Positions 21,916 to 36,437 of a stretch of 64,000 bases of DNA are shown here, piece by piece. This DNA comes from a bacterium (GTDB lineage Bacteria; Bdellovibrionota; UBA1018): the NCBI GenBank assembly GCA_019751945.1, contig JAIEMT010000003.1:34993-98992 (forward strand), given 5' to 3'. The stretch's first letter is position 1, and each line of letters begins with the position of its first letter. Position numbers and translations under genes: made by a program. The notes beneath the pieces are model-generated. The model made no database searches and was not told the DNA's origin. It saw only the letters and a program-made list of their open reading frames with translations.

Positions 21916-23544
21916 GTGCTCATTTCGATTCTTGGTTTCTTAGTAGTTCTGGGTCCCCTGGTCATCGTCCATGAATTTGGACATTTCACCTTCGCCAAGA
22001 TTTTTGGCGTCCGTGCTGACATCTTTTCAATCGGATTTGGTCCGCGGATGTGGAGCAAGCAGATCGGGGAAACGGAATTCCGCGTCTCCTGGATTCCGCT
22101 CGGGGGTTACGTAAAACTCTTTGGCGAAGATTCGGCCTCAAAGGGTTCCCCGGCCGAACAAAAACGTGCCCTTCACAAGCAGGAGGCCTGGAAGCGGTTC
22201 TTTATTTTCTTCGGCGGCCCGCTCTTCAATTTCATTTTCGCAGTGTTGATCTTCATGGCCATCTTGGTCATCGGCGAGCCCCAAATGGCCAGCTATGTGG
22301 GGCGTTCCGTTCAGGGTTCGGCAGCACAACGTGCGGGCTTCCAAAGTGGAGACCAAGTGGTTTCCATCAACGGCACCCCGGTTCGAAAGTTTGAAGAAGT
22401 TCTGACTCATATTAATGAGCATCCGGATCTTCCGATGACCTTCTTAGTGAAACATCCGGGTCAAACGACGCCAAAGGAAATTCGCATCACCCCGACCATT
22501 CAATCGGGATACAGCGTTTACGGCGAAGCAGTGAATGTTGGGGAAATCGAAGGATTGCTCCCTACCTCTCGCTCCATGACGATTGGGGTTTCGAACCCCA
22601 ACTCTCCAGCGGGTCGCGCTGGAATAAAAACCGGCGACATCGCCCTGACCTTGAACGGTGCTGAAATCAATGACTGGGAAACGCTCGAAAATGCGTACCG
22701 AAATCTGGCGCCATCCACGACTTTCCAGCTCCAAGTAAAAACAGGCAAGGCGACTCGAAACGTTCTGCTAAACAAGCCCGCTAAAGCAACAAACTTGGGC
22801 GAAGATTTAGGACTCTACTCTTCAGAACTCTTCATCGATAAAACCGTAAAAGCCGCACCCGCTGAAACTGCCGGTGTTCGCGCTGGCGACCGCATTGTCA
22901 CCATTCACGGTCACAAAGTGCAGAGCTTCTTTGAATTGAGAGACTCGGTTCAACGTGCCGGCGAAAAAGACGGCAAGGTCAACGTGTCTTGGGAAAGAAA
23001 TGGAAAGATCATGACTGCAGCGATCTCCCCCACTTCCACTACGGGGCGCGATCCGTCGTTGAGAAAAACCACTCAGTACACCATCGGCATCGTTCCGATG
23101 CTGACCTGGGCAGAACCCAAAATGATTTTAGAAAGAACCTGGAACCCCTTCGTCCTCGTTTACAAAGCGACGGAAAGAATGGCGGTCTACAGCTGGAGAA
23201 ATCTCGTCTCCATCAAGAAAATGTTCACGGGCGATGTTTCGGTCGGCACTTTAGGCGGCCCCATCCTGATTGCAAAAATCTCGGGTGAATCGCTCTCTCG
23301 CGGACTCATTGCATTTTTAACCACCATGGCCATTCTCTCGGTCGGCTTGGGAATTCTGAACGTCTTACCGGTTCCGGTATTAGACGGCGGACATCTCTTG
23401 CTCTTGGGAATTGAATCCATTCGAGGCAGACCGCTCACCTTGCGACAGATGGAAATCTTTCAGCAAGTGGGGCTCTCGCTGATCTTGCTCCTGATGATTG
23501 TCGTCATGAGAAACGATTTAGCGCGGCTCCCGATTTTCCAGTAA
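21916..23544 (+). CDS. rseP: RIP zinc metalloprotease RseP with tandem PDZ domains
   Basis: HEFGH zinc motif in the first TM helix, multiple PDZ-like segments, C-terminal LDGG motif. Confidence 0.85.
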   Translation: MLISILGFLVVLGPLVIVHEFGHFTFAKIFGVRADIFSIGFGPRMWSKQIGETEFRVSWIPLGGYVKLFGEDSASKGSPAEQKRALHKQEAWKRFFIFFGGPLFNFIFAVLIFMAILVIGEPQMASYVGRSVQGSAAQRAGFQSGDQVVSINGTPVRKFEEVLTHINEHPDLPMTFLVKHPGQTTPKEIRITPTIQSGYSVYGEAVNVGEIEGLLPTSRSMTIGVSNPNSPAGRAGIKTGDIALTLNGAEINDWETLENAYRNLAPSTTFQLQVKTGKATRNVLLNKPAKATNLGEDLGLYSSELFIDKTVKAAPAETAGVRAGDRIVTIHGHKVQSFFELRDSVQRAGEKDGKVNVSWERNGKIMTAAISPTSTTGRDPSLRKTTQYTIGIVPMLTWAEPKMILERTWNPFVLVYKATERMAVYSWRNLVSIKKMFTGDVSVGTLGGPILIAKISGESLSRGLIAFLTTMAILSVGLGILNVLPVPVLDGGHLLLLGIESIRGRPLTLRQMEIFQQVGLSLILLLMIVVMRNDLARLPIFQ

Positions 23545-23561
23545 GCGAGCACAAGAAGTTC

Positions 23562-24359
23562 ATGCGTTTTTTAACCTGGGATACCTCATCAAAGACGGGA
23601 GCCATTGCGGCCATCGAAACCGATGTCGACGGGCATCAAACCCGCTTGGTGAGCGAGTGGAGCCTCAACATCGAAATGAGCACCCACTCGGAACACCTGC
23701 TCTGGGCCATCGATCAAGTTCTGGATGCTTCGAAGTGGACGCTCAGTGATGTCGATGTCTTTGGCGTTGGCGTAGGTCCCGGAAGTTTTACGGGCCTTCG
23801 CATTGGGGTAGTTACCGCTCGCACTCTCGCTCACACCATGCAAAAACCCTTGGTCTCGGTTTCTAGTCTTTCAGTCTTAGCCAGACCGGCCGCCATTTGG
23901 GCTCAATCCCAAAAAGAACCCACTGTAATAGTGGCCACCACCGACGCTTGCAAAGGAGAGCTCTTTGCCCTTTGGGGAAAAGCGCAGGACGTGGCAAAAT
24001 CATTTTCTGGAACTCGAAAAGGAGTGGCCGAAAAAGTGATTCGCCCCGCAGACCTCATCTCCGAAATAAAATCAGCGCAGAAAAAAAGTCGCGGCACTCG
24101 TTGGCTCGCTGTGGGTGAAGGTCGCCAACGCTATTTAGAAGAGTGGAAGAAGCTTTCTGCGAAACAAGCCCGTCAGGCGGAGTATCCGTTTCCCGACCAG
24201 GTTCAGGGGCGCTACTTAGCCATGCTCACTCTCGAGTCCTATCAAGCCCTCGAAAAGAAGAAGGCTCTCTCCGAAGATGCTGATCCCTTGAAAGTGTTTC
24301 CGCACTACGTGCGCGCGTCCGATGCTGAAATGAAGTTGAAAGCAGGTTTGCTGAAATGA
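23562..24359 (+). CDS. tsaB: tRNA t6A biosynthesis protein TsaB (YeaZ)
   Basis: LTWDTSSKTGAIAA...GVGPGSFTGLRIG YeaZ N-terminal pattern; longer C-terminus than E. coli TsaB. Confidence 0.7.
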   Translation: MRFLTWDTSSKTGAIAAIETDVDGHQTRLVSEWSLNIEMSTHSEHLLWAIDQVLDASKWTLSDVDVFGVGVGPGSFTGLRIGVVTARTLAHTMQKPLVSVSSLSVLARPAAIWAQSQKEPTVIVATTDACKGELFALWGKAQDVAKSFSGTRKGVAEKVIRPADLISEIKSAQKKSRGTRWLAVGEGRQRYLEEWKKLSAKQARQAEYPFPDQVQGRYLAMLTLESYQALEKKKALSEDADPLKVFPHYVRASDAEMKLKAGLLK

Positions 24360-25270
24360 CCGATGTCGCATGGCTGGGTCCAGTCTGCGCCTTCATGTCA
24401 TCAGTCACTTGGGCAATCGGGAGCAGCGCTTACTCTCATCTTTCAAAAAACTATTCTCCCTTTGGTGTAAACTTTTCGCGCGCATGGTTGGCGCTGCCCG
24501 TTTTTATTCTGGCCGTTTTCATAACCGGCGGGTCTTTGAGTGGGGGGCTCGCCCTCTACCGAGAACTCACCCCGTATCATTGGGCTTGGCTCGCCACCTC
24601 CATGGTAGTCAGCTACGGAATTGGAGACGCCCTTTTTCTGTGGAGCACTCGCTATCTTGGGATTCCCGGTGCCCTAGCTATTTCATCGGCCTACCCCCTG
24701 CTGACCACTTTGTATGGAGTGCTGTTTCGCGAAGAAGTACTGTCCATGAAACAAGCGCTTGGAATTCTGGTGGCGATTGGGGGAATGGTCCTGGTCATTC
24801 TTTACGCTCCCCACACCGAGGTTTCTCGACACAAAAAGAGAAGCCACGCCCTGAAGGGCTTAGCGCTAGCTACGGGGGCTTGCCTGCTCTGGGCCATGAA
24901 TTCCATTGCTGTGAGTTATGGGGGTCAAGGCATCTCGCCTTTTGTTGGAAACTCCGTTCGCATGCTTTTGGCGCTTCCCATTAGTGCGGCGGCGGGCTTC
25001 CTTTTGGCGAGACGGCAGCCTCTACTCCTCCCCGTGCGGGAGTTCAAAAAGTACTGGTGGGCCATTTTGTTCGAGGCCTTTGGGGGCTCCACTTTCTTCA
25101 TGTATGGTTTAGCCCATTCCTCGCTGGCAATAGGCTCAACATTATCAGCACTTGCTCCCATCCTAGCGGTTCCCTTTGCCTGGGCAATTGGGGGCGAAAA
25201 GGTGTCTTACGTTCGAACTGGGGGAGTGGGGATGGCGGTCTGCGGTCTCTGGCTTCTGGTGGTTCCTTAA
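24356..25270 (+). CDS. EamA/DMT-family transporter
   Basis: 304 aa, 10 TM, duplicated EamA-like halves; ATGA-coupled to tsaB. Confidence 0.65.
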   Translation: MTDVAWLGPVCAFMSSVTWAIGSSAYSHLSKNYSPFGVNFSRAWLALPVFILAVFITGGSLSGGLALYRELTPYHWAWLATSMVVSYGIGDALFLWSTRYLGIPGALAISSAYPLLTTLYGVLFREEVLSMKQALGILVAIGGMVLVILYAPHTEVSRHKKRSHALKGLALATGACLLWAMNSIAVSYGGQGISPFVGNSVRMLLALPISAAAGFLLARRQPLLLPVREFKKYWWAILFEAFGGSTFFMYGLAHSSLAIGSTLSALAPILAVPFAWAIGGEKVSYVRTGGVGMAVCGLWLLVVP

Positions 25271-25287
25271 TTCCTGACTTTGGGTTA

Positions 25288-26028
25288 ATGATTAAGGACA
25301 TGGACGCGATCAACACTGAAGCCGTAAATGAACTCGTAAAATTCCCAAGCTCCCCCATTGCCTATGATGGTTGGGCCATTATTTTGGCCGGCCTCTTCGT
25401 GGCTTTCGGGTGCTGGATTGGCCTGCGCTATATGAACCCCGAACCTCAAAGCACCGCTTGGATGCTCTGGGTGAGCGGAACCGTTCTGGCCCTCGCCTTC
25501 ACCGTTTTTTCGATCTGGTTTTTCAGAGATCCGCAGCGGACTCCGCTTTCGCAAGCTGCGGAAGACGTGATCAGCGCCGCTGACGGCACTGTATTGAAGG
25601 TAGAGACGGTGAACGATCCCCGCTACGGGGGCACGGCTGAAAAGATCAGCATTTTCATGTCTCCACTGAACGTGCACGTCAACCGCGCACCCATTCGAGG
25701 AAAAGTAACCAAGGTCGAATACGTTCCTGGAAAATTTTTCGCAGCTAACCTGGACAAGGCTTCTACTGATAACGAACGCAACTGGGTCAGCATGCAGAAT
25801 GCGAAAGGTCAGCAAGTGGCCTTCTTGCAAATTGCAGGGTTCATCGCTCGACGAATTGTTTGCCGCACTCACGTCGGCGACCATCTGGGCGTGGGGCAAC
25901 GCTACGGCATGATTCGTTTTGGATCGCGAATGGAAATCTTTTTACCCAAGGGCAGTAAAATCAACGTGAAGCCGGGAGATAAACTCCAGGCCGGTGAAAC
26001 TGTGGTGGGGAAACTCCCGAATGCGTAA
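25288..26028 (+). CDS. psd: phosphatidylserine decarboxylase, short (archaeal-type) form
   Basis: Psd proenzyme self-cleavage region FGSRMEIFLP near the C-terminus; ATG at 25288 just after the EamA stop. Confidence 0.7.
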   Translation: MIKDMDAINTEAVNELVKFPSSPIAYDGWAIILAGLFVAFGCWIGLRYMNPEPQSTAWMLWVSGTVLALAFTVFSIWFFRDPQRTPLSQAAEDVISAADGTVLKVETVNDPRYGGTAEKISIFMSPLNVHVNRAPIRGKVTKVEYVPGKFFAANLDKASTDNERNWVSMQNAKGQQVAFLQIAGFIARRIVCRTHVGDHLGVGQRYGMIRFGSRMEIFLPKGSKINVKPGDKLQAGETVVGKLPNA

Positions 26029-26779
26029 GGTCTACTTGGTCCCAAACTTCGTCACAACGGCGAACATGTTTTGCGGATTTTATTCGATGATTGCATCCAT
26101 TCGACACGAATTTGTCGATGCCTGCTGGTTCATCGTCGCTGCGTCGGTCTTCGATATGCTCGACGGGCGTATTGCTCGCTTAGCTCGAGCCACCAGTCAG
26201 TTCGGTGTGGAGTATGACAGCCTCTCCGATCTGGTCTCCTTCGGAATCGCTCCGGGAATTCTTCTGTATCTTTGGGCGCTCGAACCCTTTGGACGATTGG
26301 GTTGGTTAGCGGCGTTCCTGTTTGTCGCCTGCGGGGGTCTTCGTCTCGCTCGGTTCAACGTTTTTTCGGGCAGCTTACCAAAAGCCTACTTTCAAGGGTT
26401 GCCCATTCCTATGGCCGCGGGAATGGTTTCTACCTTCATTATCTTTAACAAGACGTCGGGGTGGCCCGATGCAAGTTCCCTGGGTGTCGTGAGCTTGCTC
26501 CTGACACTGACATTGGCCAGCTTAATGGTCAGCACCATTCGATTCCCTTCCTTTAAGGAGTTGAATTGGAGATCCCGCGCGAGCTTTGGCTTCATGTTGG
26601 TGGGCGTGTTGGCCATGATCCTCATCGCCACACAGCCAGAAGTAACGCTGTTCCTTCTGATTTCGACCTACATTGTTTTCAGCCTTCTCTGGAATGCAGC
26701 CCGATGGTTGGGAGTTCCGATCTTACAAGGCAAACCGAAAGTCGTTCACGCCTCTGCTCCAGATCCGGACGGGAGATAG
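26021..26779 (+). CDS. pssA: CDP-diacylglycerol--serine O-phosphatidyltransferase
   Basis: CDP-alcohol phosphotransferase motif DMLDGRIARL...G...D in a membrane protein; 8-nt overlap with psd. Confidence 0.8.
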   Translation: MRKVYLVPNFVTTANMFCGFYSMIASIRHEFVDACWFIVAASVFDMLDGRIARLARATSQFGVEYDSLSDLVSFGIAPGILLYLWALEPFGRLGWLAAFLFVACGGLRLARFNVFSGSLPKAYFQGLPIPMAAGMVSTFIIFNKTSGWPDASSLGVVSLLLTLTLASLMVSTIRFPSFKELNWRSRASFGFMLVGVLAMILIATQPEVTLFLLISTYIVFSLLWNAARWLGVPILQGKPKVVHASAPDPDGR

Positions 26780-26789
26780 TTTTACACTC

Positions 26790-27860
26790 ATGACAACGAA
26801 GTCTTCAAAACGGGGTTTAAAAGTCGCAGTCGTGGGCGTCACCGGCGCGGTCGGCCGTGAAATGCTCGCAGTGATGGAAGGCCGAAAGTTTCCAGTTCAA
26901 GATTTTGTGGGTTTTGCTTCAGCCCGCTCTGAAGGCAAAAATATTCGTCTCAACGACAAAACGTATCGTTGCCAATCCTTGAAGAAGGGCTGCTTTGAGG
27001 GAGTCGATCTGGCCTTCTTCGACGCATCAGACAGCATTTCAAACGAATGGGTGCCTGAAGCGTTGAATGCTGGGGCTTGGGTTGTCGACAATTCTTCTGC
27101 GCATCGAATGAAGCCCGATGTTCCCCTCATTGTTCCAGAAGTAAACGGCCACGCTCTAGAGAAATCCTTAAAAACTTCTCCGTCGAGTCGCTTGGTGGCT
27201 GGTCCGAATTGCTCGGTGGCTCAACTCGTCGTGGCGCTGAAACCCTTGCACGAAAAATGGGGCATTAAACGAGTGGTCGTATCGACTTATCAGAGCACGA
27301 GCGGGGCAGGCACTGCTGCCATGGATGAACTCTCTCGACAAACTGTGGCCATGTTCAACCAGGGATCTATTGAGCCGAAATTTTTTCCGCATCAGATTGC
27401 GTTTAATTGCATTCCCCAAATTGGAAGCTTTAAGGAAAACGGAAACACCTCGGAAGAAAATAAGATGATTGAAGAGGCGCGAAAGCTTCTCGAAATTCCC
27501 GGATTAAAAATCTCTGTGACGGCCGTTCGCGTTCCTACCTTTTCCTGTCATGCAGAGAGTGTGAATGTGGAATTTGAAAAAAGCCTGACTCCCGAAGAAG
27601 CTCGGGAGGTTCTCAATAGTGCCGATGGAATTCAGGTTTTGGACGACCCTTCGAAGAATATTTACCCCATGGGCTTTACCCATTCTGGAGGGAGCGTGGA
27701 GGCCGCTACGGGGCGGGACGCAGTCTACGTGGGGCGAATTCGACGAGACGAATCCACCGAAAATGGTTTAAACTTCTGGGTAGTGTCAGATAACTTGAGA
27801 AAGGGAGCCGCACTCAATGCCATCCAAATTGGCGAAGTTTTGCTTCGCGCTCTCGTTTAG
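26790..27860 (+). CDS. asd: aspartate-semialdehyde dehydrogenase
   Basis: LKVAVVGVTGAVGREML NAD-binding N-terminus; active-site Cys region GPNCSVAQLVVALKPL. Confidence 0.85.
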   Translation: MTTKSSKRGLKVAVVGVTGAVGREMLAVMEGRKFPVQDFVGFASARSEGKNIRLNDKTYRCQSLKKGCFEGVDLAFFDASDSISNEWVPEALNAGAWVVDNSSAHRMKPDVPLIVPEVNGHALEKSLKTSPSSRLVAGPNCSVAQLVVALKPLHEKWGIKRVVVSTYQSTSGAGTAAMDELSRQTVAMFNQGSIEPKFFPHQIAFNCIPQIGSFKENGNTSEENKMIEEARKLLEIPGLKISVTAVRVPTFSCHAESVNVEFEKSLTPEEAREVLNSADGIQVLDDPSKNIYPMGFTHSGGSVEAATGRDAVYVGRIRRDESTENGLNFWVVSDNLRKGAALNAIQIGEVLLRALV

Positions 27861-29277
27861 CTTACTTCTGACTTCGTGGAGCTGGGCGACGACAAACGTC
27901 TATCCCATTTCTCCTTGGTCTCGTTCGGTCGGGACTTCTGCTGTCGCCTACTCCGTCACACCCACCGCTTATGCGGGCGACACGAATTATAAAATCAATT
28001 ACGATTTCACGGTTCTTTCAACAGCTGCGGGAGAAGTTAGTGCTCGAAGCGGCGCCGGTCAACAAAGCCTGATCGACAATACGAACATGCTGTTGTTCAC
28101 GGTTTATTCCAGCAAAACAGATATCGGAGATCCTGCTAGAAATTACATCCTCACTGTGACCATGAACGCCAACAGTGCAGATAGCCGAGTCCCGATCGCC
28201 TTTTTTGGGAACCTCTCAACCGAAACCACAGGAACAGACTGTAACTCTACCGATTGCATCACGGAAACTTTAGCCGACGGAACTTCTTTCTTCGCCGCCG
28301 TTCCTCTCGCCACCAAGGGAATGCCCGCTACGATTGGCATTTATGTTGCCGACATCTGCAAATTCGCGCTCAGTCACTATGGAGCGCCAGAAACGGCCGC
28401 CACTCTTTGTTCCTCTGCGGGAACGAACAACGTCGCAACCGTCGATGCCACATCCGGATACAAAACACTCCCCCTCAAATTTAATATTTACCAAACTACA
28501 GGTGGCAGCACGAATGTCACGGCAGCCAGCGGTTCCACCACTGAAACCGATTCCATCACCATCAAAGCTCAGCTTTCTCAGCCGACCCTGACTTGCCCTG
28601 CAAATCTTTACGCCTCCTATTTTCCGGGAGATGAACAAATCTACGTCGACACCGGTCTTTTCGGTGGAGGTACTGCTATCAGCGGAAATGCAGTAGGCAC
28701 CACCCTGGTAGGCCTGGCTAGTCGGACGGCGACGCCGACGCCGTCGTCCTATCAAGCCATTGGCCGTATGCCCATTCAGTCCGGCCAGCAACCTTTCGGT
28801 GGTTTTGTGAACACCACCGACGGAACGGACAATGCCTACAACATCAGTTATCGGCTTCGCGACGACTCGGGAGTATTTTCCAACGCGGACCCCCTTTGCG
28901 AATTCACCGGCGTTAAAACTTCTGCCATCTACGGATTTCTGAAACAAGGTCAGTGCTTCATTGCTACGGCAGCATTTCAATCTGATAAGGCAGCGCCCGT
29001 CAGTCTCTTGCGAGAATTTCGAGGAGAGGTGCTGCTCAAGTCCGTCTTAGGTCGCGCTTTTGTCCGTTGGTATTATTCTTGGTCGCCCGATGCTGCGCTC
29101 TGGCTCTTAGAAAATCCGGACTTTAGGCAACCCGTTTTATCCTTGCTCTTACCACTTCAGATCTTCGCTTGGATCTGCTTGCGTCCCTTACTGCTAGCTG
29201 CGTTGGTGCTTGCGGGGATTGCGGCTCTCTTAGGGTCTCGGTTCCTAGTTCCGCGAACCTTGCGGGAGGTCGAATGA
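27817..29277 (+). CDS. secreted Thr/Ser-rich protein with conserved C-terminal CFIATAAF-hydrophobic domain
   Basis: Signal peptide; C-terminus CFIATAAFQSD...LREFRGEVLL...GRAFVRWYYSWSP followed by TM-like tail (see finding). Confidence 0.5.
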   Translation: MPSKLAKFCFALSFSLLLTSWSWATTNVYPISPWSRSVGTSAVAYSVTPTAYAGDTNYKINYDFTVLSTAAGEVSARSGAGQQSLIDNTNMLLFTVYSSKTDIGDPARNYILTVTMNANSADSRVPIAFFGNLSTETTGTDCNSTDCITETLADGTSFFAAVPLATKGMPATIGIYVADICKFALSHYGAPETAATLCSSAGTNNVATVDATSGYKTLPLKFNIYQTTGGSTNVTAASGSTTETDSITIKAQLSQPTLTCPANLYASYFPGDEQIYVDTGLFGGGTAISGNAVGTTLVGLASRTATPTPSSYQAIGRMPIQSGQQPFGGFVNTTDGTDNAYNISYRLRDDSGVFSNADPLCEFTGVKTSAIYGFLKQGQCFIATAAFQSDKAAPVSLLREFRGEVLLKSVLGRAFVRWYYSWSPDAALWLLENPDFRQPVLSLLLPLQIFAWICLRPLLLAALVLAGIAALLGSRFLVPRTLREVE

Positions 29278-30278
29278 GAATTCGAACTCTGAGCTTCGTG
29301 AGTCTGACCTTGATCTCGCTTTCGGCCTTTGCCGAACCAGAACTTCAACCCTACATCGATCAGCTGAAGAGCACTCTCCCCGAAGAGAAGCGAGTGCCTG
29401 ATCCAACAGATAGCAACCCGTCTCCATTCATCGACTCCATCAATGCCCAGGCAAAAGATAAGAAAACGGAAACCGATGAAGAATCCTACACCGAACACTT
29501 GAAGAAGACGGATCCGAAGCTCCGTGAAAATGAAGACGCCAAGCCCTTCACTGAAGAAGCGAAGAAAACACTGGGTCCAGGTGAACCCACTGACGGAGCG
29601 ATTGCAGCGGTCACTCAGGGAAAATCGGAACTTCACCCCCGATTGGATGGCGAAATTCACAACGCCTTTGGATTCTCTGTCGGCGGTGGTGGAACTAGAA
29701 ACCTAAGCGCTCCTTCGGATGTTCAAGGCGCAAATTTCAACACCCTTTACGGCAGCGGCTGGGCCCCCGACCTGAGATTCTTTTACGAGTACCAACCCTT
29801 TCACAGCGAATGGTTTGGAAACTTCGGCATCATTGCATCCGGTGCAGTGGCCATTCATACGGGAACGGGCGCCTTCGATCAGAACGTCGATGTGGGTGCT
29901 TCCACTAATTTTGGGAGCTCGTCACAAACCCAGTTTCGATTCCTCACCCTTCCGGCAACAGTCGGCGTAATTTATCGATTCAATCTGCTCCGAGTTATCC
30001 GCCCCTTTGTCTCCGTGAGCGCTGCCGCGGTTGGCTTCATTGAAAGCCGCTCGGACCGAGAAGCGACGATGTCGGGATACTCTTTGGGTTACCAAGCCGT
30101 TGGCGGCGTGAATATTTTGCTCAACGGCGTCAGTAAGGGCGCTCTTTGGGAGCTTTACTCCAGCGCCGATGTGAAGAAATATTACCTCACCGTAGACTTT
30201 ACCCGCCTACAAACCATTATTCGTCCCGTACGATTTGAAATTTCTGCAGTAAACATTGGCTTCACTTTCGAGTATTAA
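29274..30278 (+). CDS. putative outer-membrane beta-barrel protein
   Basis: Signal peptide MRIRTLSFVSLTLISLSAFA; alternating amphipathic strands; C-terminal ...NIGFTFEY aromatic terminus; ATGA overlap with upstream gene. Confidence 0.45.
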   Translation: MRIRTLSFVSLTLISLSAFAEPELQPYIDQLKSTLPEEKRVPDPTDSNPSPFIDSINAQAKDKKTETDEESYTEHLKKTDPKLRENEDAKPFTEEAKKTLGPGEPTDGAIAAVTQGKSELHPRLDGEIHNAFGFSVGGGGTRNLSAPSDVQGANFNTLYGSGWAPDLRFFYEYQPFHSEWFGNFGIIASGAVAIHTGTGAFDQNVDVGASTNFGSSSQTQFRFLTLPATVGVIYRFNLLRVIRPFVSVSAAAVGFIESRSDREATMSGYSLGYQAVGGVNILLNGVSKGALWELYSSADVKKYYLTVDFTRLQTIIRPVRFEISAVNIGFTFEY

Positions 30279-30289
30279 CTCAACAGACC

Positions 30290-31120
30290 ATGTGGAAATA
30301 CGCTTTACTCCTTTCTTACCGCGGCACCGATTTCTGCGGCTGGCAGAAACAACGGGGCGTCGCCGCTGAAGGCCTCCCCAGCATTCAGGCCACGATCGAA
30401 GCGGCTTTGAAAAGGATTACGCAAGAACCGGTCTCCGTTGTGGGAAGTGGTCGAACCGACTCGGGTGTGCATGCCCTGGGGCAGGTGGCCCACTTTGTTT
30501 TAAAAGGGGAACGTCACTGGGAATGCGAAATCCTTCGCCGCGGATTGAACGCCATTCTCTCCCCCCAGCAAATTCAAGTACGAGCAGTGATAGAAGCCCC
30601 GATGGATTTTCATGCGCAGCGCGGAGCGGAAAAAAAACAATACAGCTATTACTTTCAACAAGGCACCGCACCCCTCCCCCATCTGGAGCCTTTCAGCTGG
30701 TGGATTCGAAAGCCCCTCGACGTGAAAGCCATGCAAGAGGGCATTGCCCATTTGCTCGGTCGACATGACTTCAAACCCTTCCAAGCCTCCGGAGCCAAGC
30801 CGGGCGAAACGGTCCGTGAAATTTTAGAAGCCGAGGTGATTCAGGGACCGATCGGTTATCCCGTCTACCACGACAGTGTCATGGAGCACGAAAACCTAGG
30901 CCTGGTTCGCGTCCGAATCGTGGGAACGGGATTCTTGAAACAGATGGTTCGAGGCATTGCGGGCACCCTCCTTCAAGTGGGGGAAGGTCGCCGCCCAGCT
31001 AGCGACTTTGCCAAGATTCTTAGTACCGGGAAACGGGCTCTGGTAGGGCCTACAGCGCCATCCCGTGCCCTCTGGTTAGAGCGGGTTTGGTACCCCGATT
31101 TGGACTGGAGGAAAAGTTGA
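30290..31120 (+). CDS. truA: tRNA pseudouridine(38-40) synthase
   Basis: YRGTDFCGWQKQ and GSGRTDSGVHALGQVAHF catalytic-Asp motif. Confidence 0.85.
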   Translation: MWKYALLLSYRGTDFCGWQKQRGVAAEGLPSIQATIEAALKRITQEPVSVVGSGRTDSGVHALGQVAHFVLKGERHWECEILRRGLNAILSPQQIQVRAVIEAPMDFHAQRGAEKKQYSYYFQQGTAPLPHLEPFSWWIRKPLDVKAMQEGIAHLLGRHDFKPFQASGAKPGETVREILEAEVIQGPIGYPVYHDSVMEHENLGLVRVRIVGTGFLKQMVRGIAGTLLQVGEGRRPASDFAKILSTGKRALVGPTAPSRALWLERVWYPDLDWRKS

Positions 31121-31155
31121 CTTTTGCACTGCTGGTCGCATAAGAATAAGGCACA

Positions 31156-32517
31156 ATGAATCTTACAGTCGATGTCGAAAAGTCGTCCAATGTTGTCCGC
31201 AAACTCACCGTCAAGGTCCCAGCTGCCACCGTCGCCGAACACTTCGAGCGCGGGCTTGCTGAAGTTCAAAAGACCGCCAACGTCAAAGGCTTCCGCCAAG
31301 GGCATGTCCCGATTACCGTCATCAAGCAGATGTACGGCGATGACGTTCGTCACAAAGTTTTTCACAATTTAATCGAGGAGTCCTATCGCCAAGCCGTGCG
31401 GCAGAGCAACCTCATGCCCGTGGGCAATCCCAAGATTGAAACTCCGGATCACAAGACCGGCGAAGGCGCTCACGACCACTCCTTAAAAGAAGATCAGGAT
31501 CTCAACTACACCGCCACTGTTGAAATCATGCCTGAGATTCAAGTGAAGTCTTACAAGGGCATCGCGCTGAAAAAAGATTCCGTTGCCATCACCGATCAAG
31601 ACGTTGAACTCATCATTAAAAATCTCCGCGACTCTCAAGCCGAACTCATTCCAGTAGCAGGCGGATTGATCTTGGCAGACGGACAGCAATCGTCCCGTGC
31701 AGTGAAGACCGGCGATTACGTTGACATGGAATTTGAAGGCGGCGTCGTTACCGAAACCGGAATCAATAAGCTGGAGGGCATGAAGGGCTCCCGCATGATT
31801 GAAGTCGGCGGCAACACCCTCATTCCAGGATTTGAATCCAACATCGAAGGAATGAAACGCGGAGAAACCAAAACCTTCCGCATCAAATTTCCAGAAGATT
31901 ACGGCGATGCTCAACTCTCGGGCAAGGATGCAGAATTCACCGTAAAGGTGAACGAGCTGAAGGAAAAGAAACTTCCCGAGCTGAACGACGAGTTCGTCAA
32001 GACCATGGGTTATGAAAACCTCACCGACTTGATGACGAAAGCTCGCGACCATCTCACGAAGGAACGTGCGCAAGAAGTGGAACGCAAATTGAAGAGCGAT
32101 CTTCTTCAGGCATTGATCGACAAGAACCCCTTCGAAGTTCCGATGGTCTTGGTTCAAACTCAGACCCGAGCGCTAGCCCAAGACATTGCTGAAAACTTAA
32201 AGAACCAGGGCTACACCGAACAGCTGATCCAAGAGATGCTGGGTTCTGAATTCGAAAATTTAAAGAAACGCGCTGAAACCCAGGTTCGTTCCAGCCTCTT
32301 GCTCGAAGCGATTTCGAAGAAAGAAAACATCGAACTCGAACAAGGTGCGGTCGATTCTGAAATCGACAAGATTGCTGCCTCCATGAAAGTGGAAGTGGAT
32401 CGCTTGAAGGACTACTACAATAAGAATCCGAAGTTCTTGGAAGACCTGGAATACAAGCTGCGCGAAGAACAGACGGTGAAGTTCTTGCTCGGCCAATCCA
32501 AGGTCAGCGAAAAGTAA
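31156..32517 (+). CDS. tig: trigger factor
   Basis: 453 aa; ribosome-binding GFRQGHVP (GFRxGxxP) motif; FKBP-type middle domain. Confidence 0.9.
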   Translation: MNLTVDVEKSSNVVRKLTVKVPAATVAEHFERGLAEVQKTANVKGFRQGHVPITVIKQMYGDDVRHKVFHNLIEESYRQAVRQSNLMPVGNPKIETPDHKTGEGAHDHSLKEDQDLNYTATVEIMPEIQVKSYKGIALKKDSVAITDQDVELIIKNLRDSQAELIPVAGGLILADGQQSSRAVKTGDYVDMEFEGGVVTETGINKLEGMKGSRMIEVGGNTLIPGFESNIEGMKRGETKTFRIKFPEDYGDAQLSGKDAEFTVKVNELKEKKLPELNDEFVKTMGYENLTDLMTKARDHLTKERAQEVERKLKSDLLQALIDKNPFEVPMVLVQTQTRALAQDIAENLKNQGYTEQLIQEMLGSEFENLKKRAETQVRSSLLLEAISKKENIELEQGAVDSEIDKIAASMKVEVDRLKDYYNKNPKFLEDLEYKLREEQTVKFLLGQSKVSEK

Positions 32518-32535
32518 AATAGGGTTCGATCAGCT

Positions 32536-33372
32536 CTATTTCTTTCGCGCCGGAATATTTAACGCCGATACCGAAGTCAAATTGCCGTAACGGGCTGCCA
32601 CTTTAATCTGAGTATCGTCTTTGCGGGTGGCCTCGAGCAGATGGAGATGCCCACACCCCGTCTGTTTCACATCGTTACTATCGGTTTCCCAATCCGCAGC
32701 GCAGCTCACGTCTTCTTTCGTGCCGTCTTCACAGGAAGCAATCGCTTCGTACTTCAGATACTCGCTGTGTGCCGAACCCACGGAGGCCGGGGCCAAGCGA
32801 ACATCTAACCGAGTGAGCGCCTTTCTCAGACGAATGACTCGCGTCCCTTTTCGTGCTCCCATCCAATCGGCCTCCACACCCACATCGGCATGTACGCATC
32901 CAAACGTCAAAGTGTTGTCGCTGAGTCGAGCGCGATGAGGAACCACGACCCAAGTCACTTCGTCAGTGACATCGGTCTTCCGACCATCCGCATATTTCAA
33001 AACTGCACGCAGCTTGGCCTTCTTTCCTCGGTAGATCGGGTCTTCTGGGTCCGACAAAATCTCGACGGTCTGAACGCTGTGATTTTCTGGGAGCCCTCGA
33101 TAATAAGGAGCTGAGCCACCTTGACGTTGATAGAAGCGCGTCTCCATTCCCCATTCTCGAAGCAACGGATAGAAGCTACCTTGAGTTTCCAAAAGCTCTT
33201 TACGCTGTGCGCGAGTGAGATCGGGAAAGTACGCGACGTAGACTTTCTTCTGATCCGCGTCGAGCATGCGATAGAGTTCTGGCGCCTCTTTCACGAACGA
33301 TGTCGCGCAGCTGCTCACTACCCCACCGACTGCTGCTGTCAAAAAAAAGAACAGTAACTGTAAAGTTTTCAT
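32536..33372 (-). CDS. lipoprotein, hypothetical
   Basis: Signal plus lipobox VVSSC; several Cys pairs; no known domain. Confidence 0.45.
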   Translation of the reverse strand: MKTLQLLFFFLTAAVGGVVSSCATSFVKEAPELYRMLDADQKKVYVAYFPDLTRAQRKELLETQGSFYPLLREWGMETRFYQRQGGSAPYYRGLPENHSVQTVEILSDPEDPIYRGKKAKLRAVLKYADGRKTDVTDEVTWVVVPHRARLSDNTLTFGCVHADVGVEADWMGARKGTRVIRLRKALTRLDVRLAPASVGSAHSEYLKYEAIASCEDGTKEDVSCAADWETDSNDVKQTGCGHLHLLEATRKDDTQIKVAARYGNLTSVSALNIPARKK

Positions 33373-34457: not shown

Positions 34458-36437
34458 TCACTGCGGGGCGGCCAGGCCTAAAATCTTGGCCGCCTTCGCA
34501 TACGCTTGATCCATCATCGTCTCCGGATCAAACACTCTCACCTGAATCTCAATCCCACCTGTTGAATTCAATTCTCGCTTCAGCAGCTTCTTAGTCACAG
34601 CCGATTCTAATAACACCTGTCGAACCTGTTCTTCGGTCAGAGCGGGGTACTTTGCCAAAATCAAAGTGGCAGCAGCAGAAATCGCTGGAGTGGAACACGA
34701 CGTTCCTCCCACGCAACGTTTGTCATAAGATTCGTACGCATAGATATCCACCGGCGATCCGTAGTTCGAGTAAGAAGCAACCTCATCAAAGCCCGAGAGC
34801 GATTGCGACGCTCTTCTCAGAGCCCCCACACAGAGAATTCTGGAGAGCGGCCGATTCTGCGCCGGTACATCCAACATACAACTCGGCAGCTTATTGCTGT
34901 CCAAACTCAAACCACTGTTCCCTGCACTCATTACCCAGAGCCACGGGGTATTTTGAAAGAACTGGTCGTCTTTTATGGAGCGAAGAAGGGGCTGCATCAT
35001 GAAGGACATCGAAAGGGATACGATGCGCGGTTTTACCGGCGCATCCATTGCCGAAACCATGGCATCCCAAGTGCCAGCAAAAACCCCACGCCAAGTTCCA
35101 CGACCCTCGTGATTTCCGGAATTTTGTTGGCCCGCTAAGATCTGTCGAAGCGACTGCACCTTCCACATCGCCACATCGACTTTACGTTGTTCCAACGTTT
35201 CTTTGGAAAGCGAACCCACCAACGTGAGCAAGCTGGCCATCGTTCCCGTTCCGTGACCAAAAAGACCACCCGAATCTCCAGGCAACCAAGCGTTGCTGTC
35301 GTGATCGGTGGCATCAATCGAAGAAATTTCTCCGCTCTTCCCCTGACCCATGAACATTCCGAGCTCTGGAAAAGTTTGGAAGTCGACACCGGAATCCATG
35401 AACGCCACTCGGACAGCATCAGAAGCCGCTGCGGGGTGTACCGGCAACTCCGGATTATCACTGTCGCGCGCTTTTTTATAATCCGCGACCGCCGAAGCGA
35501 AAACCGTGTTCCCTAGAACAAAGCGATCGAGATATTCTTCGACCAGGGAGAAAAGCGGGTGCCGCTTTTGAAAATCAATCGGTGTAAAAATTTCGTCCGG
35601 CGTGGCGGGCAAGAGCGCTCCCCAGAGCAGGTAGCCCGTGTGAGCCGAAATATCTGGAATAGTATACGGCGTGGGGAGCGAGAAGTTCTTCTGAACTTCC
35701 GGCATTCCCGCAACGGTTTCAAACCAGAGTCGATCGGGCTCGGTAACATCGAGAGCACGCAGAAGCGCTTTCACTCTATCCAAATGAGCAAAGGCTTCCA
35801 GCGTAGCCCGATTCTGCTTTAAATAATCCACCACGCGAGCGCTGGCCTCTTTCAATGCCTTTTGGCGCTGAACGGACAAGGCATGAAGCTCGTCTAGTTC
35901 GGAGTCTTCATAGCGGGCGCGAGCCAGCTGACTTAAATCCTGCCGCATCCGACTCAGAAGCGAATTGTCTGGCTGATGCCCACCCAGGTACTCCGCCAGT
36001 TCTTTTAAACTCAGCCGAGAAAGCGGTTTCTGATCTTCCGGTAATCTAAAAAACTGAAAATGCTGGAAAGCCAGCCGAGTAACGTCATCGGCTGGCTCCA
36101 GCAAGTCGTGTGTGCAAAACAGTAATGAGACTAGTGCAGCTTGCTTCTGTCGAGTGCTTGCCGCCGGATCAAACGGAATCAAAGATCGGCACTCAGACGG
36201 GGTCTTTACCCCCATACTGGGCGCCTGCGGAGTCACGACCTCAAACCGGTCACTTCCCGGTACGTAGTCCGTAGCTCTCCACTTTTGGTTGATTTCGTTG
36301 AGTCGACGAATGGTTTCGCCTGAGACCAGTTCATCCACCGCCTTCTGCGTTGGATTGCCCTGCCCACAGGCCGATAATACAAATAATCCTACAGCAACGG
36401 CGATGCCGCCGCTGTACTTCCCCCTGGATTCCTTCAA
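34458..36437 (-). CDS. subtilisin-like (S8) serine peptidase lipoprotein with long N-terminal extension
   Basis: Lipobox LSAC; catalytic triad motifs AFMDSGVD (Asp), HGTGTMAS (His), GTSCSTP (Ser); about 350-aa N-terminal region of unknown function. Confidence 0.7.
   Translation of the reverse strand: MKESRGKYSGGIAVAVGLFVLSACGQGNPTQKAVDELVSGETIRRLNEINQKWRATDYVPGSDRFEVVTPQAPSMGVKTPSECRSLIPFDPAASTRQKQAALVSLLFCTHDLLEPADDVTRLAFQHFQFFRLPEDQKPLSRLSLKELAEYLGGHQPDNSLLSRMRQDLSQLARARYEDSELDELHALSVQRQKALKEASARVVDYLKQNRATLEAFAHLDRVKALLRALDVTEPDRLWFETVAGMPEVQKNFSLPTPYTIPDISAHTGYLLWGALLPATPDEIFTPIDFQKRHPLFSLVEEYLDRFVLGNTVFASAVADYKKARDSDNPELPVHPAAASDAVRVAFMDSGVDFQTFPELGMFMGQGKSGEISSIDATDHDSNAWLPGDSGGLFGHGTGTMASLLTLVGSLSKETLEQRKVDVAMWKVQSLRQILAGQQNSGNHEGRGTWRGVFAGTWDAMVSAMDAPVKPRIVSLSMSFMMQPLLRSIKDDQFFQNTPWLWVMSAGNSGLSLDSNKLPSCMLDVPAQNRPLSRILCVGALRRASQSLSGFDEVASYSNYGSPVDIYAYESYDKRCVGGTSCSTPAISAAATLILAKYPALTEEQVRQVLLESAVTKKLLKRELNSTGGIEIQVRVFDPETMMDQAYAKAAKILGLAAPQ

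What the first reader, a model, noticed from the sequence alone, without database searches (positions are those of the whole stretch)
27817..30278. Two-gene surface module: secreted Thr-rich protein with a CFIATAAF-type C-terminal domain translationally coupled (ATGA) to an OM beta-barrel
The 486-aa protein ends with CFIATAAFQSDKAAPVSLLREFRGEVLLKSVLGRAFVRWYYSWSPDAALWLL plus a hydrophobic tail. This Cys-Phe-Ile-Ala-Thr-Ala-Ala block followed by LR-FR and a YY-SP segment recurs at the C-termini of otherwise unrelated secreted proteins in several phyla. Its role is unknown, though it could be a sorting or anchoring domain. The downstream gene (ATG at 29274 overlapping the stop) encodes a signal-peptide protein that ends in ...FTFEY like an OM barrel. 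It may be a dedicated partner or anchor.
Basis: partly seen in the sequence, partly recalled or inferred. Interest (0 to 1): 0.55.

Follow-up and report, generated by a model that had tools for sequence, protein, structure and literature searches.

The report
Cysteine-tagged envelope protein plus barrel partner
A gene pair conserved across relatives of predatory Bdellovibrio bacteria encodes an exported protein ending in a widespread but unstudied cysteine-bearing membrane tag (the CFI-box), overlapped by a small outer-membrane barrel that always accompanies it and is sometimes fused to it, which points to a dedicated surface-anchoring module.

Summary
Gene A (27817-29277, 486 aa) and gene B (29274-30278, 334 aa) overlap by ATGA.

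- **Gene A:** it has a signal peptide, a Thr-rich beta-rich domain with six conserved Cys, and a C-terminal domain that passes the curated NCBIfam model NF041770, CFI-box-CTERM. I found no paper on this domain.
- **Gene B:** it has a signal peptide, a roughly 105-aa extension carrying repeated PYIDxLK-like motifs, and a confidently predicted 8-stranded outer-membrane barrel. The barrel is distantly related to the Bd0486 and MXAN_2562 barrel families.
- **The pairing is real:** all 26 Bdellovibrionota loci that include upstream DNA carry a CFI-box gene directly before the barrel, in the same housekeeping synteny. About 15% of family representatives are natural A-B fusions.
- **The pairing recurs elsewhere:** unrelated beta-helix/FN3 CFI-box proteins are also followed by MXAN_2562-family barrels. 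Most other CFI-box proteins, such as subtilases, have no adjacent barrel, and a few sit inside type II secretion operons.
- **Closest precedents:** the Myxococcus pairs TraA/TraB and SgmI/MXAN_2562, which combine a Cys-containing MYXO-CTERM tag with a barrel partner.

Most likely reading: a sorting or anchoring tag plus a dedicated outer-membrane partner. Processing and surface exposure are inferred, not shown. I rate it a new variant of a known kind.

The parts
27803..27807 (+). Shine-Dalgarno-like GGGAG, 9 nt before the ATG of gene A. It lies inside the 3' end of asd, which ends at 27860.
   Evidence: Read from the sequence. asd and A overlap by 44 nt.
27817..29277 (+). Gene A: an exported, Thr-rich, Cys-containing protein of 486 aa with a CFI-box-CTERM domain.
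   Evidence: ORF. NCBIfam NF041770 scores 69.4 bits against a cutoff of 40. Orthologues are present in all 26 related loci that include upstream DNA.
27817..27888 (+). Signal peptide of A, aa 1-24: MPSKLAKFCFALSFSLLLTSWSWA|TT.
   Evidence: Sequence inspection. The N-terminus MP.KL.K plus a hydrophobic core is conserved in orthologues. No dedicated signal-peptide predictor was run.
27889..28953 (+). Passenger region of A, aa 25-379. It is beta-rich, 14.4% Thr, and has six conserved Cys (142, 147, 181, 198, 260, 361). Its last part is FN3-like, and it ends in a low-confidence linker (aa 369-379).
28954..29154 (+). CFI-box domain, aa 380-446. It holds the invariant motif C380-F-I-A-T-A, then LREFRG, GRAFV..YY.WSP..A.W, and the start of the first hydrophobic helix.
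   Evidence: NF041770 matches positions 1-67 of 69. Invariant columns are listed. Cys is present in 152 of 152 A-family domains found by HMMER. AF2 gives pLDDT 87-95, all helical.
29116..29181 (+). Conserved hydrophobic helix H1, aa 434-455 (P.VL..L.P.[EQ]..AW..L[HN]P). It is probably interfacial or re-entrant.
   Evidence: AF2 helix 434-455 and conservation. In other CFI-box proteins this segment carries Arg residues.
29185..29274 (+). Poorly conserved transmembrane helix H2 (aa 457-477) plus a short basic tail (aa 478-486).
   Evidence: Kyte-Doolittle windows reach or exceed 1.6 only across aa 440-479. AF2 gives a helix at 457-477. In natural fusions the tail is followed by a basic loop and then the signal peptide of B, so the tail is inferred to be cytoplasmic.
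29264..29277 (+). Translational-coupling junction: GGGAGG, 4 nt, then ATGA (start of B overlapping the stop of A).
   Evidence: Sequence. An NTGA overlap occurs in 12 of 25 unfused related loci, most others overlap by 1-17 nt, and 5 are fused.
29274..30278 (+). Gene B: a 334-aa outer-membrane beta-barrel protein with a periplasmic N-terminal extension.
   Evidence: 48 homologues at 35-45% identity in Bdellovibrionota. It gives sub-threshold hits to NF053801 OM_Bd0486 and NF040596 MXAN_2562_fam.
29274..29333 (+). Signal peptide of B, aa 1-20: MRIRTLSFVSLTLISLSAFA|EPEL.
   Evidence: Sequence and alignment. No dedicated predictor was run.
29334..29660 (+). N-terminal extension of B, aa 21-129. 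It holds the invariant QPYIDQLK motif at the mature N-terminus, further [PS][YF][IT][DE]x[LI][KR] repeats separated by charged linkers, and a GAI..V..GKSEL motif.
   Evidence: Alignment. Repeat count has a median of 3 per protein against 0.05 in shuffles. AF2 predicts short helices at low confidence.
29661..30275 (+). Eight-stranded beta-barrel, aa 130-334. Conserved motifs lie at the inferred periplasmic turns (FHSEWFGN, YRFNLLR..RP), and the protein ends in the beta-signal-like GFTFEY.
   Evidence: AF2 strands at 130-145, 165-178, 182-200, 216-235, 242-259, 266-282, 302-316 and 320-333, with pLDDT about 85-97. Foldseek matches Ail, OmpX, OmpA and NspA.

Best explanation
A and B form one envelope module: a C-terminally tagged exported protein and its dedicated outer-membrane partner.

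**Shown:**
- A has a signal peptide, a disulfide-capable beta-rich (Ig/FN3-like) passenger, and a roughly 100-aa CFI-box C-terminus.
- That C-terminus contains an invariant Cys directly after a flexible linker, about 55 residues of conserved helices, one conserved hydrophobic helix, one generic transmembrane helix and a basic tail.
- B is an 8-stranded outer-membrane barrel.
- The two genes are translationally coupled, always co-occur, and are repeatedly fused.

**Inferred mechanism:**
1. A is exported by Sec and held at the outer face of the inner membrane by the CFI-box transmembrane helix, with the basic tail in the cytoplasm.
2. The unpaired invariant Cys at the linker/tag junction is the site of processing or lipid attachment, as proposed for MYXO-CTERM.
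3. The passenger is then moved to the outer membrane, possibly by a type II secretion-like route.
4. There it is held or positioned by barrel B.
5. B would do this through its conserved periplasmic turns and its PYIDxLK-repeat extension, acting as an anchor or dock rather than as a pore.

The function of the passenger is probably adhesion or envelope structure. This rests only on its fold class and on the Myxococcus analogues.
For: - **Tag identity:** NF041770 scores 69.4 against a cutoff of 40.
- **Tag structure:** all helical, pLDDT 87-95, preceded by a disordered linker.
- **Invariant Cys:** present in 152 of 152 domains. The six other conserved Cys of A make an even number, so C380 is left unpaired.
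- **Barrel:**
- **Co-conservation:** 26 of 26 loci, plus the more distant pair P0008/L028, all in the synteny tsaB-eamA-pssA-asd-A-B-truA-tig.
- **Coupling:** start and stop overlap in most loci.
- **Fusions:** 5 of 27 genome loci and 22 of 148 cluster representatives encode one polypeptide. Its order is CFI-box, transmembrane helix, basic loop, signal peptide of B with an AxA-like site, then barrel. This fixes the topology of the tail and shows functional linkage.
- **Independent recurrence:** beta-helix/FN3 CFI-box proteins P0003, P0004 and P0021 are followed by barrels that pass NF040596 MXAN_2562_fam at 134, 103 and 123 bits, two of them with a 4-nt overlap.
- **Position of the barrel:** in 80 metagenome CFI-box loci, all 14 barrel hits lie immediately downstream or are fused, and none lies elsewhere. 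A fusion of the MXAN_2562 type also exists (L106).
- **Myxococcus parallel (SgmI):** the homologous barrel MXAN_2562 is co-transcribed with SgmI/MXAN_2561, a MYXO-CTERM protein. Mutants in the two genes share fitness profiles (bioRxiv 10.64898/2026.08.28.747804; NCBIfam name NF045522).
- **Myxococcus parallel (TraA/TraB):** MYXO-CTERM has an invariant Cys, a transmembrane helix and an Arg tail. It is cleaved by myxosortase and its proteins reach the surface by T2SS. traA and traB overlap by 4 bases. MXAN_5598 is a natural tag-plus-barrel fusion (PMC11980579; PMC3325183).
- **T2SS link:** CFI-box genes sit inside T2SS operons in L055, L069 and L111.
Against: - No cleavage, lipidation or surface exposure is shown for any CFI-box protein, and I found no publication.
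- The CFI motif lies more than 50 residues from the hydrophobic helices and 77 from the transmembrane helix. About 70 residues are conserved, which looks more like a folded functional domain than a disposable tripartite signal.
- No candidate sorting enzyme was found in the window.
- About 80% of the sampled CFI-box proteins have no adjacent barrel, so the barrel is not part of a general CFI-box pathway.
- The T2SS link rests on 5 of 87 loci from other lineages, none of them Bdellovibrionota.
- The AF2 model of the passenger has low confidence, so 'adhesin-like' is weak.
Confidence: 0.5

Rival explanations
1. Trans-envelope tether. The CFI-box is a permanent inner-membrane anchor domain and is never cleaved. 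A stays in the inner membrane with its passenger in the periplasm. It binds the periplasmic extension or turns of barrel B, forming a bridge between the inner and outer membranes.
For: - The CFI-box is a long, strongly conserved, confidently folded helical domain.
- The most conserved motifs of B lie at the inferred periplasmic turns and in a periplasmic repeat extension.
- The pair sits in a core housekeeping array next to phospholipid-synthesis genes.
- The fusions are equally compatible with this reading.
Against: - MXAN_2562-type partners have no periplasmic extension, being 212-221 aa in all.
- Passengers of other CFI-box proteins are subtilases, a C1 peptidase, propellers and PKD domains, which suit surface or secreted roles.
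- Some CFI-box genes lie inside T2SS operons.
- The homologous Myxococcus barrel pairs with a tag known to be cleaved and sorted.
- An invariant Cys directly after a disordered linker is not explained by simple anchoring.
Confidence: 0.25
2. Self-processing attachment domain. The CFI-box catalyses its own N-to-S acyl shift at the X-Cys bond (often Gly-Cys-Phe, as at the Hedgehog cleavage site). It then transfers the passenger's new C-terminus to a lipid or envelope polymer without a separate sortase. B would serve as receptor or acceptor site.
For: - The Cys is invariant and directly preceded by Gly-rich linkers in many members (GGGGGG-CFIATAA).
- Conservation over about 70 residues is unusually strong for a sorting signal.
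- No recurrent enzyme gene lies next to CFI-box genes in 87 loci.
Against: - The resemblance to the Hedgehog G|CF site comes from memory and covers three residues only.
- The domain is helical, not a Hint fold.
- In the window protein the residue before Cys is Gln, not Gly.
- There is no evidence that any cleavage occurs.
Confidence: 0.1
3. B is the translocator (a two-partner or autotransporter-like pore) that exports A across the outer membrane.
For: The gene order of passenger then barrel, and the fusions, superficially resemble autotransporters.
Against: - The barrel has only 8 strands and resembles OmpX, Ail and OmpA-TM. From general knowledge of these folds, they have no pore able to pass a polypeptide.
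- In the fusions a transmembrane helix, a cytoplasmic loop and an internal signal peptide separate passenger and barrel. This is incompatible with autotransporter topology.
Confidence: 0.05
4. There is no functional link. A and B are neighbours only because the whole housekeeping array is syntenic.
For: The entire tsaB...tig array is conserved, not only A-B.
Against: - Fusions arose repeatedly, in 22 of 148 representatives.
- Overlap of start and stop is conserved.
- The same tag-barrel adjacency occurs with an unrelated passenger family in quite different gene neighbourhoods.
- Myxococcus mutants in the homologous pair share phenotypes.
Confidence: 0.03

Closest known systems
NCBIfam NF041770, CFI-box-CTERM domain
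   Same: The C-terminus of the window protein passes the curated cutoff over 67 of 69 model positions. It has the invariant CFIATAA motif, and the domain is followed by hydrophobic helices and a basic tail.
   Different: The family exists only as an annotation model. I found no paper, no mechanism and no processing enzyme for it. GenBank still calls this protein 'hypothetical protein'.
MYXO-CTERM / myxosortase (MrtX) / T2SS sorting in Myxococcus (TraA; PMC11980579)
   Same: - Exported protein with a disordered linker, an invariant Cys, a transmembrane helix and a basic cytoplasmic tail.
- The homologous barrel family (MXAN_2562) sits downstream of a MYXO-CTERM protein.
- Some CFI-box genes lie in T2SS operons.
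   Different: - MYXO-CTERM is a short tripartite signal with the Cys next to the transmembrane helix.
- The CFI-box is a conserved helical domain of about 70 aa, with the Cys more than 50 residues before the hydrophobic helices.
- No myxosortase-like gene is seen here, and processing is untested.
TraA/TraB operon and the MXAN_5598 fusion (PMC3325183, PMC11980579)
   Same: - A tagged cell-surface protein whose ORF overlaps a downstream outer-membrane partner gene by 4 bases.
- Natural fusions exist in which the tag becomes internal and is followed by an outer-membrane barrel.
   Different: - TraB and MXAN_5598 carry an OmpA-like peptidoglycan-binding domain. B has none (Pfam gives no hit) and instead has a PYIDxLK-repeat extension.
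- The passengers are unrelated.
SgmI (MXAN_2561) - MXAN_2562 pair of M. xanthus; NCBIfam NF045522 and NF040596
   Same: - A FN3-containing, C-terminally tagged protein is co-transcribed with a small outer-membrane barrel homologous to B.
- Transposon mutants in the two genes share a fitness profile.
- CFI-box beta-helix/FN3 proteins in metagenomes are followed by true MXAN_2562-family barrels.
   Different: - Window B scores 34 bits against a cutoff of 100, so it is not a family member.
- B has an extra N-terminal extension of about 105 aa.
- SgmI carries MYXO-CTERM, not a CFI-box.
NCBIfam NF053801, Bd0486 family outer membrane beta-barrel protein
   Same: It is the best-scoring family for B (E 4.8e-19, barrel region). 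A more distant syntenic pair (L028) scores 353 bits, showing that the Bd0486 lineage is the same gene at the same locus.
   Different: Window B scores 68.7 bits against a cutoff of 370, so it is a distant relative only. I found nothing relevant published on Bd0486: the five full-text hits are chance character strings in unrelated papers.
Eight-stranded outer-membrane barrels OmpX, Ail, OmpA-TM, NspA, OmpW
   Same: The fold matches: Foldseek E 5e-9 to 1e-5, TM-score 0.6-0.7 on the target. B also has a signal peptide and a C-terminal aromatic residue.
   Different: - Sequence identity is 6-13%.
- B's conserved motifs are at the inferred periplasmic turns rather than in the surface loops.
- B is obligately paired with an upstream tagged protein.

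Membership tests
CFI-box-CTERM domain (NCBIfam NF041770) | HMM score at or above the curated cutoff of 40 bits | tested here: met
   69.4 bits, E 1.7e-19, aa 380-446 matched to model positions 1-67 of 69.
CFI-box-CTERM domain (NCBIfam NF041770) | Invariant Cys-Phe-Ile motif at the start of the domain | tested here: met
   C380-F381-I382-A383-T384-A385 are invariant in alignments A2, A3 and A4. Cys is present in 152 of 152 domains found by HMMER.
CFI-box-CTERM domain (NCBIfam NF041770) | Located at the C-terminus of an exported protein and followed by a hydrophobic segment | tested here: met
   The domain starts 107 aa from the end. The only strongly hydrophobic windows cover aa 440-479. The N-terminal signal peptide was judged by inspection.
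Bd0486 family OM beta-barrel (NCBIfam NF053801) | HMM score at or above the curated cutoff of 370 bits | tested here: not met
   68.7 bits over aa 153-334. B is a distant relative, not a member.
MXAN_2562 family OM beta-barrel (NCBIfam NF040596) | HMM score at or above the curated cutoff of 100 bits | tested here: not met
   34.2 bits, E 1.9e-8. Barrels next to beta-helix/FN3 CFI-box proteins do pass, at 103-134 bits.
Small (8-stranded) outer-membrane beta-barrel fold | Signal peptide, eight antiparallel membrane-spanning strands, and a C-terminal aromatic beta-signal | tested here: met
   AF2 predicts 8 strands at pLDDT about 85-97. Foldseek matches Ail, OmpX, OmpA-TM and NspA. The protein ends in FTFEY.
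Tripartite C-terminal sorting signals (LPXTG, PEP-CTERM, GlyGly-CTERM, MYXO-CTERM) | A short signature motif immediately followed by the transmembrane helix | tested here: not met
   The CFI motif (aa 380) is separated by about 55 conserved residues from the first hydrophobic helix (434) and by 77 from the transmembrane helix (457).
Tripartite C-terminal sorting signals (LPXTG, PEP-CTERM, GlyGly-CTERM, MYXO-CTERM) | A transmembrane helix followed by a basic cytoplasmic tail | tested here: met
   H2 spans aa 457-477 and is followed by SRFLVPRTLREVE. Orthologues have Arg/Lys-rich tails. In the fusions the tail leads into the signal peptide of B, which implies a cytoplasmic location.
Tripartite C-terminal sorting signals (LPXTG, PEP-CTERM, GlyGly-CTERM, MYXO-CTERM) | A dedicated processing enzyme (sortase, exosortase, rhombosortase or myxosortase) co-occurring in the genome | not testable with these tools
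   Only 64 kb of the genome is available. Pfam scans of membrane proteins in the window found no CPBP, rhomboid or exosortase, only RseP. No recurrent enzyme gene lies next to 87 CFI-box genes.
Tripartite C-terminal sorting signals (LPXTG, PEP-CTERM, GlyGly-CTERM, MYXO-CTERM) | Proteolytic removal of the tag and covalent anchoring of the passenger | not testable with these tools
   This needs biochemistry. No publication on the CFI-box was found.
T2SS-dependent surface proteins (MYXO-CTERM, GlyGly-CTERM type) | Dependence on, or genomic association with, type II secretion | tested here: inconclusive
   5 of 87 CFI-box loci adjoin T2SS or prepilin genes, and 3 lie inside gspF/gspG operons. None of them is of the A-B type, and no T2SS genes are in the window.
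TraA/TraB-like 'tagged protein + OM partner' operons | Overlapping ORFs of the tagged protein and its OM partner, with natural fusions | tested here: met
   ATGA overlap here. An NTGA overlap occurs in 12 of 25 unfused loci. Fusions occur in 5 of 27 loci and 22 of 148 representatives.
TraA/TraB-like 'tagged protein + OM partner' operons | The partner carries an OmpA-like peptidoglycan-binding domain | tested here: not met
   B gives no significant Pfam hit: its only match is PETase at E 0.12, far below threshold. The extension consists of short repeats and helices.

The most novel reading that the evidence does not exclude
The CFI-box may be a new class of C-terminal attachment domain rather than a variant of the short sortase-type signals. 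In this reading it is a folded helical module of about 70 residues at the membrane surface. It would use its invariant Cys to process itself or to be processed, and so hand very diverse passengers to the outer membrane or cell surface. In two passenger families it would have acquired its own dedicated 8-stranded barrel receptor. That would amount to an uncharacterised two-component surface-anchoring system present in tens of thousands of protein clusters.
Probability: 0.17. Interest if true: 0.8.

Novelty: new variant of a known kind. Interest (0 to 1): 0.55.

Why it matters
The CFI-box is very common: 22,568 clusters at 50% identity reach E<=1e-10. It ends subtilases, propellers, PKD proteins and adhesin-like proteins, yet no function, enzyme or publication is attached to it.

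This locus, its roughly 15% natural fusions and the parallel MXAN_2562-type pairs give three things:

- **A topology:** the tail is cytoplasmic.
- **A specific partner:** a small outer-membrane barrel.
- **A tractable test bed:** the Bdellovibrio Bd0486 locus and Myxococcus sgmI/MXAN_2562.

With these one can ask how Cys-tagged proteins are anchored in the envelopes of diderm bacteria. The result also extends the 'tag plus barrel partner' design, known from TraA/TraB, beyond Myxococcota.

Tried and rejected
- **Pfam:** no significant family for A or B.
- **Literature:** no papers for 'CFI-box-CTERM' or 'CFIATAA'. 'Bd0486' gave only chance character strings in unrelated papers, and 'Bd0485' and 'sgmI' added nothing beyond one preprint. 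The 2023 Haft preprint on Cys-containing sorting signals does not mention the CFI-box.
- **Third homologue search:** the candidate list was saturated by CFI-box words, and it added only one orthologue.
- **AFDB fold library:** unavailable.
- **Sorting enzyme in the window:** none found.
- **Promoter and terminator scan:** it found nothing that separates A-B from asd or truA.
- **B as a protein-conducting pore:** rejected on strand number and on the topology of the fusions.
- **The barrel as a universal CFI-box partner:** rejected, because the subtilase, C1-peptidase and other CFI-box loci lack it.
- **Antisense ORFs:** the ORFs at 28270-28980 and 29157-29660 on the - strand were treated as spurious, since they overlap conserved + strand genes.

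Full report
**Observation.** The window holds two same-strand ORFs exactly as described.
- Gene A runs 27817-29277 and encodes 486 aa. Gene B starts at the ATG at 29274, inside the ATGA that also holds A's stop codon, and ends at 30278 (334 aa).
- A GGGAGG lies 4 nt before B's ATG, and a GGGAG lies 9 nt before A's ATG. A's start is 44 nt inside the end of asd.
- The ORF listing offers a longer TTG start for B at 29169. The ATG gives a canonical signal peptide and is where the homologues begin.
- A begins with a signal-peptide-like segment (MPSKLAKFCFALSFSLLLTSWSWA|TT). Its mature N-domain is 14.4% Thr. The only strongly hydrophobic stretch apart from the signal peptide covers aa 440-479.

**What the C-terminal block is.**
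- A aa 380-446 match NCBIfam NF041770 'CFI-box-CTERM domain-containing protein' at 69.4 bits against a cutoff of 40. Pfam has nothing.
- The same block ends subtilases, beta-helix/FN3 proteins, YVTN propellers, PKD and FG-GAP proteins and a C1 peptidase. It is often preceded by a poly-Gly linker.
- A profile containing the domain finds 28,543 cluster representatives at E<=1e-3 and 22,568 at E<=1e-10.
- One member is labelled 'CFI-box-CTERM domain-containing protein [Syntrophales bacterium]', which places it in Thermodesulfobacteriota.
- Full-text searches for 'CFI-box-CTERM' and 'CFIATAA' return no paper. The preprint on Cys-containing sorting signals does not mention the domain.
- AlphaFold2 predicts aa 380-477 as five helices at pLDDT 87-95, preceded by a disordered linker at aa 369-379.
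- C380, F381, I382, A383, T384 and A385 are invariant, and F401, R402, L406, G412, Y419, A427 and P446 are also invariant. The Cys is present in 152 of 152 domains that HMMER found without any motif filter.

**What B is.**
- AlphaFold2 on 27 homologues gives eight long antiparallel strands over aa 130-334, with pLDDT mostly 85-97. The extension at aa 21-129 forms short helices at low confidence.
- Foldseek against the PDB returns Ail, OmpA-TM, OmpX, NspA, OmpW and OprG at E 5e-9 to 1e-5.
- NCBIfam gives sub-threshold hits to NF053801 'Bd0486 family outer membrane beta-barrel protein' (68.7 bits, cutoff 370) and NF040596 'MXAN_2562 family' (34.2 bits, cutoff 100). B is therefore a distant relative of both families and a member of neither.
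- The family ends in GLTFE[YF]. Assuming the standard topology with both termini periplasmic, its most conserved motifs (FHSEWFGN and YRFNLLR..RP) fall at periplasmic turns.
- The extension starts with the invariant QPYIDQLK motif. It contains a median of three [PS][YF][IT][DE]x[LI][KR] motifs per protein, against 0.05 in shuffles.

**Co-conservation.**
- A scan of one genome per species with the B alignment returned 27 loci. All are labelled Bdellovibrionota except one 'Lysobacteraceae' MAG.
- All 26 loci that include upstream DNA have a CFI-box ORF ending at the start of the barrel gene.
- The upstream proteins are orthologues of A. They share a signal peptide, have similar lengths, are 21-30% identical in the N-domain, and conserve Cys142, 147, 181, 198, 260 and 361.
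- The wider order tsaB-eamA-(psd)-pssA-(asd)-A-B-truA-tig is conserved. It also holds in a more distant pair (P0008/L028), whose barrel scores 353 bits on the Bd0486 model.
- Among 25 unfused junctions, 12 are NTGA overlaps and most of the rest overlap by 1-17 nt.

**Fusions.**
- In 5 of the 27 loci, and in 22 of the 148 newly retrieved top-ranked A-family cluster representatives, A and B form one ORF of 706-874 aa.
- The order in these fusions is CFI-box, two hydrophobic segments, a basic loop, a hydrophobic segment with an AxA-like site that corresponds to B's signal peptide, QPYID..., and then the barrel.
- The number and diversity of these fusions argue against assembly error.
- They show functional linkage. 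They also imply that A's basic tail is cytoplasmic, so an odd number of membrane crossings follows the exported passenger. In this reading the generic helix H2 is the membrane span, and the conserved H1 is interfacial or re-entrant. This last point is an inference.

**Generality.**
- CFI-box proteins of a different passenger type (beta-helix plus FN3: P0003, P0004, P0021) are followed by barrels of 212-221 aa. These pass the MXAN_2562 family cutoff at 134, 103 and 123 bits. Two overlap the upstream gene by 4 nt, and one has a CBS gene in between.
- Among the 80 metagenome loci that best match the window's CFI-box, 14 have such a barrel. It is always directly downstream or fused (L038, L095, L106) and never elsewhere within +-4 kb. 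This sample is biased towards relatives of the query.
- CFI-box subtilases, a C1 peptidase and others have no adjacent barrel.
- Clustering all neighbours of 87 CFI-box genes gave the barrel as the only widespread partner. The next most frequent neighbours were type II secretion genes.
- In L055 the CFI-box gene lies between T2SSF and T2SSG/J. In L111 a CFI-box subtilase precedes T2SSF and pseudopilins. In L069 the CFI-box gene precedes T2SSG. In L041 the CFI-box protein itself has a prepilin N-terminus.
- Profile-profile comparison of the A family with the beta-helix/FN3 family aligns the CFI-box plus about 50 columns upstream, which look like FN3 strands (probability 99.8).

**Comparison with known systems.**
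- In M. xanthus the barrel MXAN_2562 is co-transcribed with sgmI (MXAN_2561). SgmI is a two-FN3 protein with a C-terminal sorting tag, and insertions in both genes share fitness profiles (bioRxiv 10.64898/2026.08.28.747804). NCBIfam names the upstream family 'MXAN_2561 family MXYO-CTERM-anchored protein'.
- MYXO-CTERM consists of a motif with an invariant Cys, a transmembrane helix and an Arg-rich cytoplasmic tail. It is cleaved by the CPBP protease myxosortase, is proposed to be lipidated on the Cys, and its proteins reach the surface through the T2SS (PMC11980579).
- The same paper notes that traA and traB ORFs overlap. It also notes that MXAN_5598 is a natural fusion of an adhesin, an internal MYXO-CTERM and an outer-membrane barrel with an OmpA domain (PMC3325183).
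- The module here has the same design with a different tag. The CFI-box is a folded domain of about 70 aa whose Cys lies more than 50 residues from the hydrophobic helices. It has no known enzyme. B lacks an OmpA domain.

**Mechanism.**
- I commit, at about 0.5, to a sorting or anchoring tag plus a dedicated outer-membrane partner. The steps would be Sec export, transient inner-membrane anchoring by the CFI-box helix, processing or lipidation at the unpaired invariant Cys, transfer to the outer membrane, and docking to B.
- The anatomy, the coupling, the co-conservation, the fusions and the fold of B are shown. Processing, surface exposure and the docking role of B are inferred.
- The main rival, at about 0.25, is a permanent bridge between the inner and outer membranes in which the CFI-box is never removed. 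The strong conservation of the tag and of B's periplasmic face favours this rival.
- A self-processing domain (about 0.1) is not excluded. A translocator role for B and mere synteny are both unlikely.

**Verdict.** Both gene families already have curated NCBIfam models, and the design has Myxococcus precedents. What appears unreported is the obligate pairing and fusion of CFI-box proteins with barrels of the Bd0486/MXAN_2562 superfamily, together with the topology this implies. I rate it a new variant of a known kind, with interest 0.55.

Noticed in passing
window 29334-29660 (B aa 21-129); same region in P0026-P0069: The periplasmic extension of B carries 3-4 spaced copies of a short motif, [PS][YF][IT][DE]x[LI][KR] (QPYIDQLK, SYTEHLK, PFTEEAK). 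The first copy is invariant at the mature N-terminus. The median is 3 per protein against 0.05 in shuffles. Its binding target is unknown.
   Followed up: partly
L055:843-6409, L111:2627-7761, L069:1-2400, L117: CFI-box genes with DUF5122-propeller or subtilase passengers lie inside type II secretion operons, between or next to T2SSF, T2SSG and pseudopilin genes. This suggests that CFI-box proteins are T2SS-linked cargo in some lineages.
   Followed up: partly
L041:3371-4363: A 331-aa protein combines a prepilin-type N-terminal methylation motif (Pfam N_methyl) with a C-terminal CFI-box. It sits next to a T2SSE/PilT-type ATPase and two pilin-like genes. This is an unusual pilin-like protein with anchors at both ends.
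   Followed up: no
P0017 (826 aa) and P0159 (789 aa): Two atypical layouts turned up. In P0017 the CFI-box is followed by a soluble extension of about 110 aa instead of a transmembrane helix. In the A-B fusion P0159 the second transmembrane helix, the basic loop and B's signal peptide are replaced by one short hydrophobic stretch. Either could be a real variant or an assembly error.
   Followed up: no
L033:3614-3973, L034:3581-3973, L035:1889-2356: CFI-box subtilases (P0076, P0078) and a C1 peptidase (P0077) each have a small ORF of 119-155 aa about 30-120 nt upstream with no family match. The two next to the subtilases are homologous to each other. They may be an inhibitor or chaperone partner.
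   Followed up: partly
L026 (JAGTJX010000001.1, labelled Lysobacteraceae MAG): This locus carries the full Bdellovibrionota-type array tsaB-pssA-asd...A-B-truA-tig. The taxonomic label or the binning of this contig looks doubtful.
   Followed up: no
window 23562-32517: A and B are embedded, with overlaps or gaps of 12 nt or less, in a same-strand housekeeping array: tsaB, an EamA transporter, psd, pssA, asd, A, B, truA and tig. asd and A overlap by 44 nt. No sigma-70-like promoter was found in 23000-33000. The adjacency to the genes for phosphatidylethanolamine synthesis is conserved and may be coincidental.
   Followed up: partly
window 37298-38604 and 40082-41497: An IS3-type transposase pair (HTH_Tnp_1 plus rve) and a Mutator-family transposase lie about 8-11 kb downstream of the module.
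   Followed up: partly
window 42592-45411 (-): A 939-aa ORF has no Pfam match and lies next to the transposases. It is uncharacterised.
   Followed up: no
window 34458-36437 (-): A 659-aa protein has a lipoprotein-like N-terminus and a Peptidase_S8 domain but no CFI-box. This genome's subtilase therefore uses a different anchoring mode from the CFI-box subtilases seen elsewhere.
   Followed up: no
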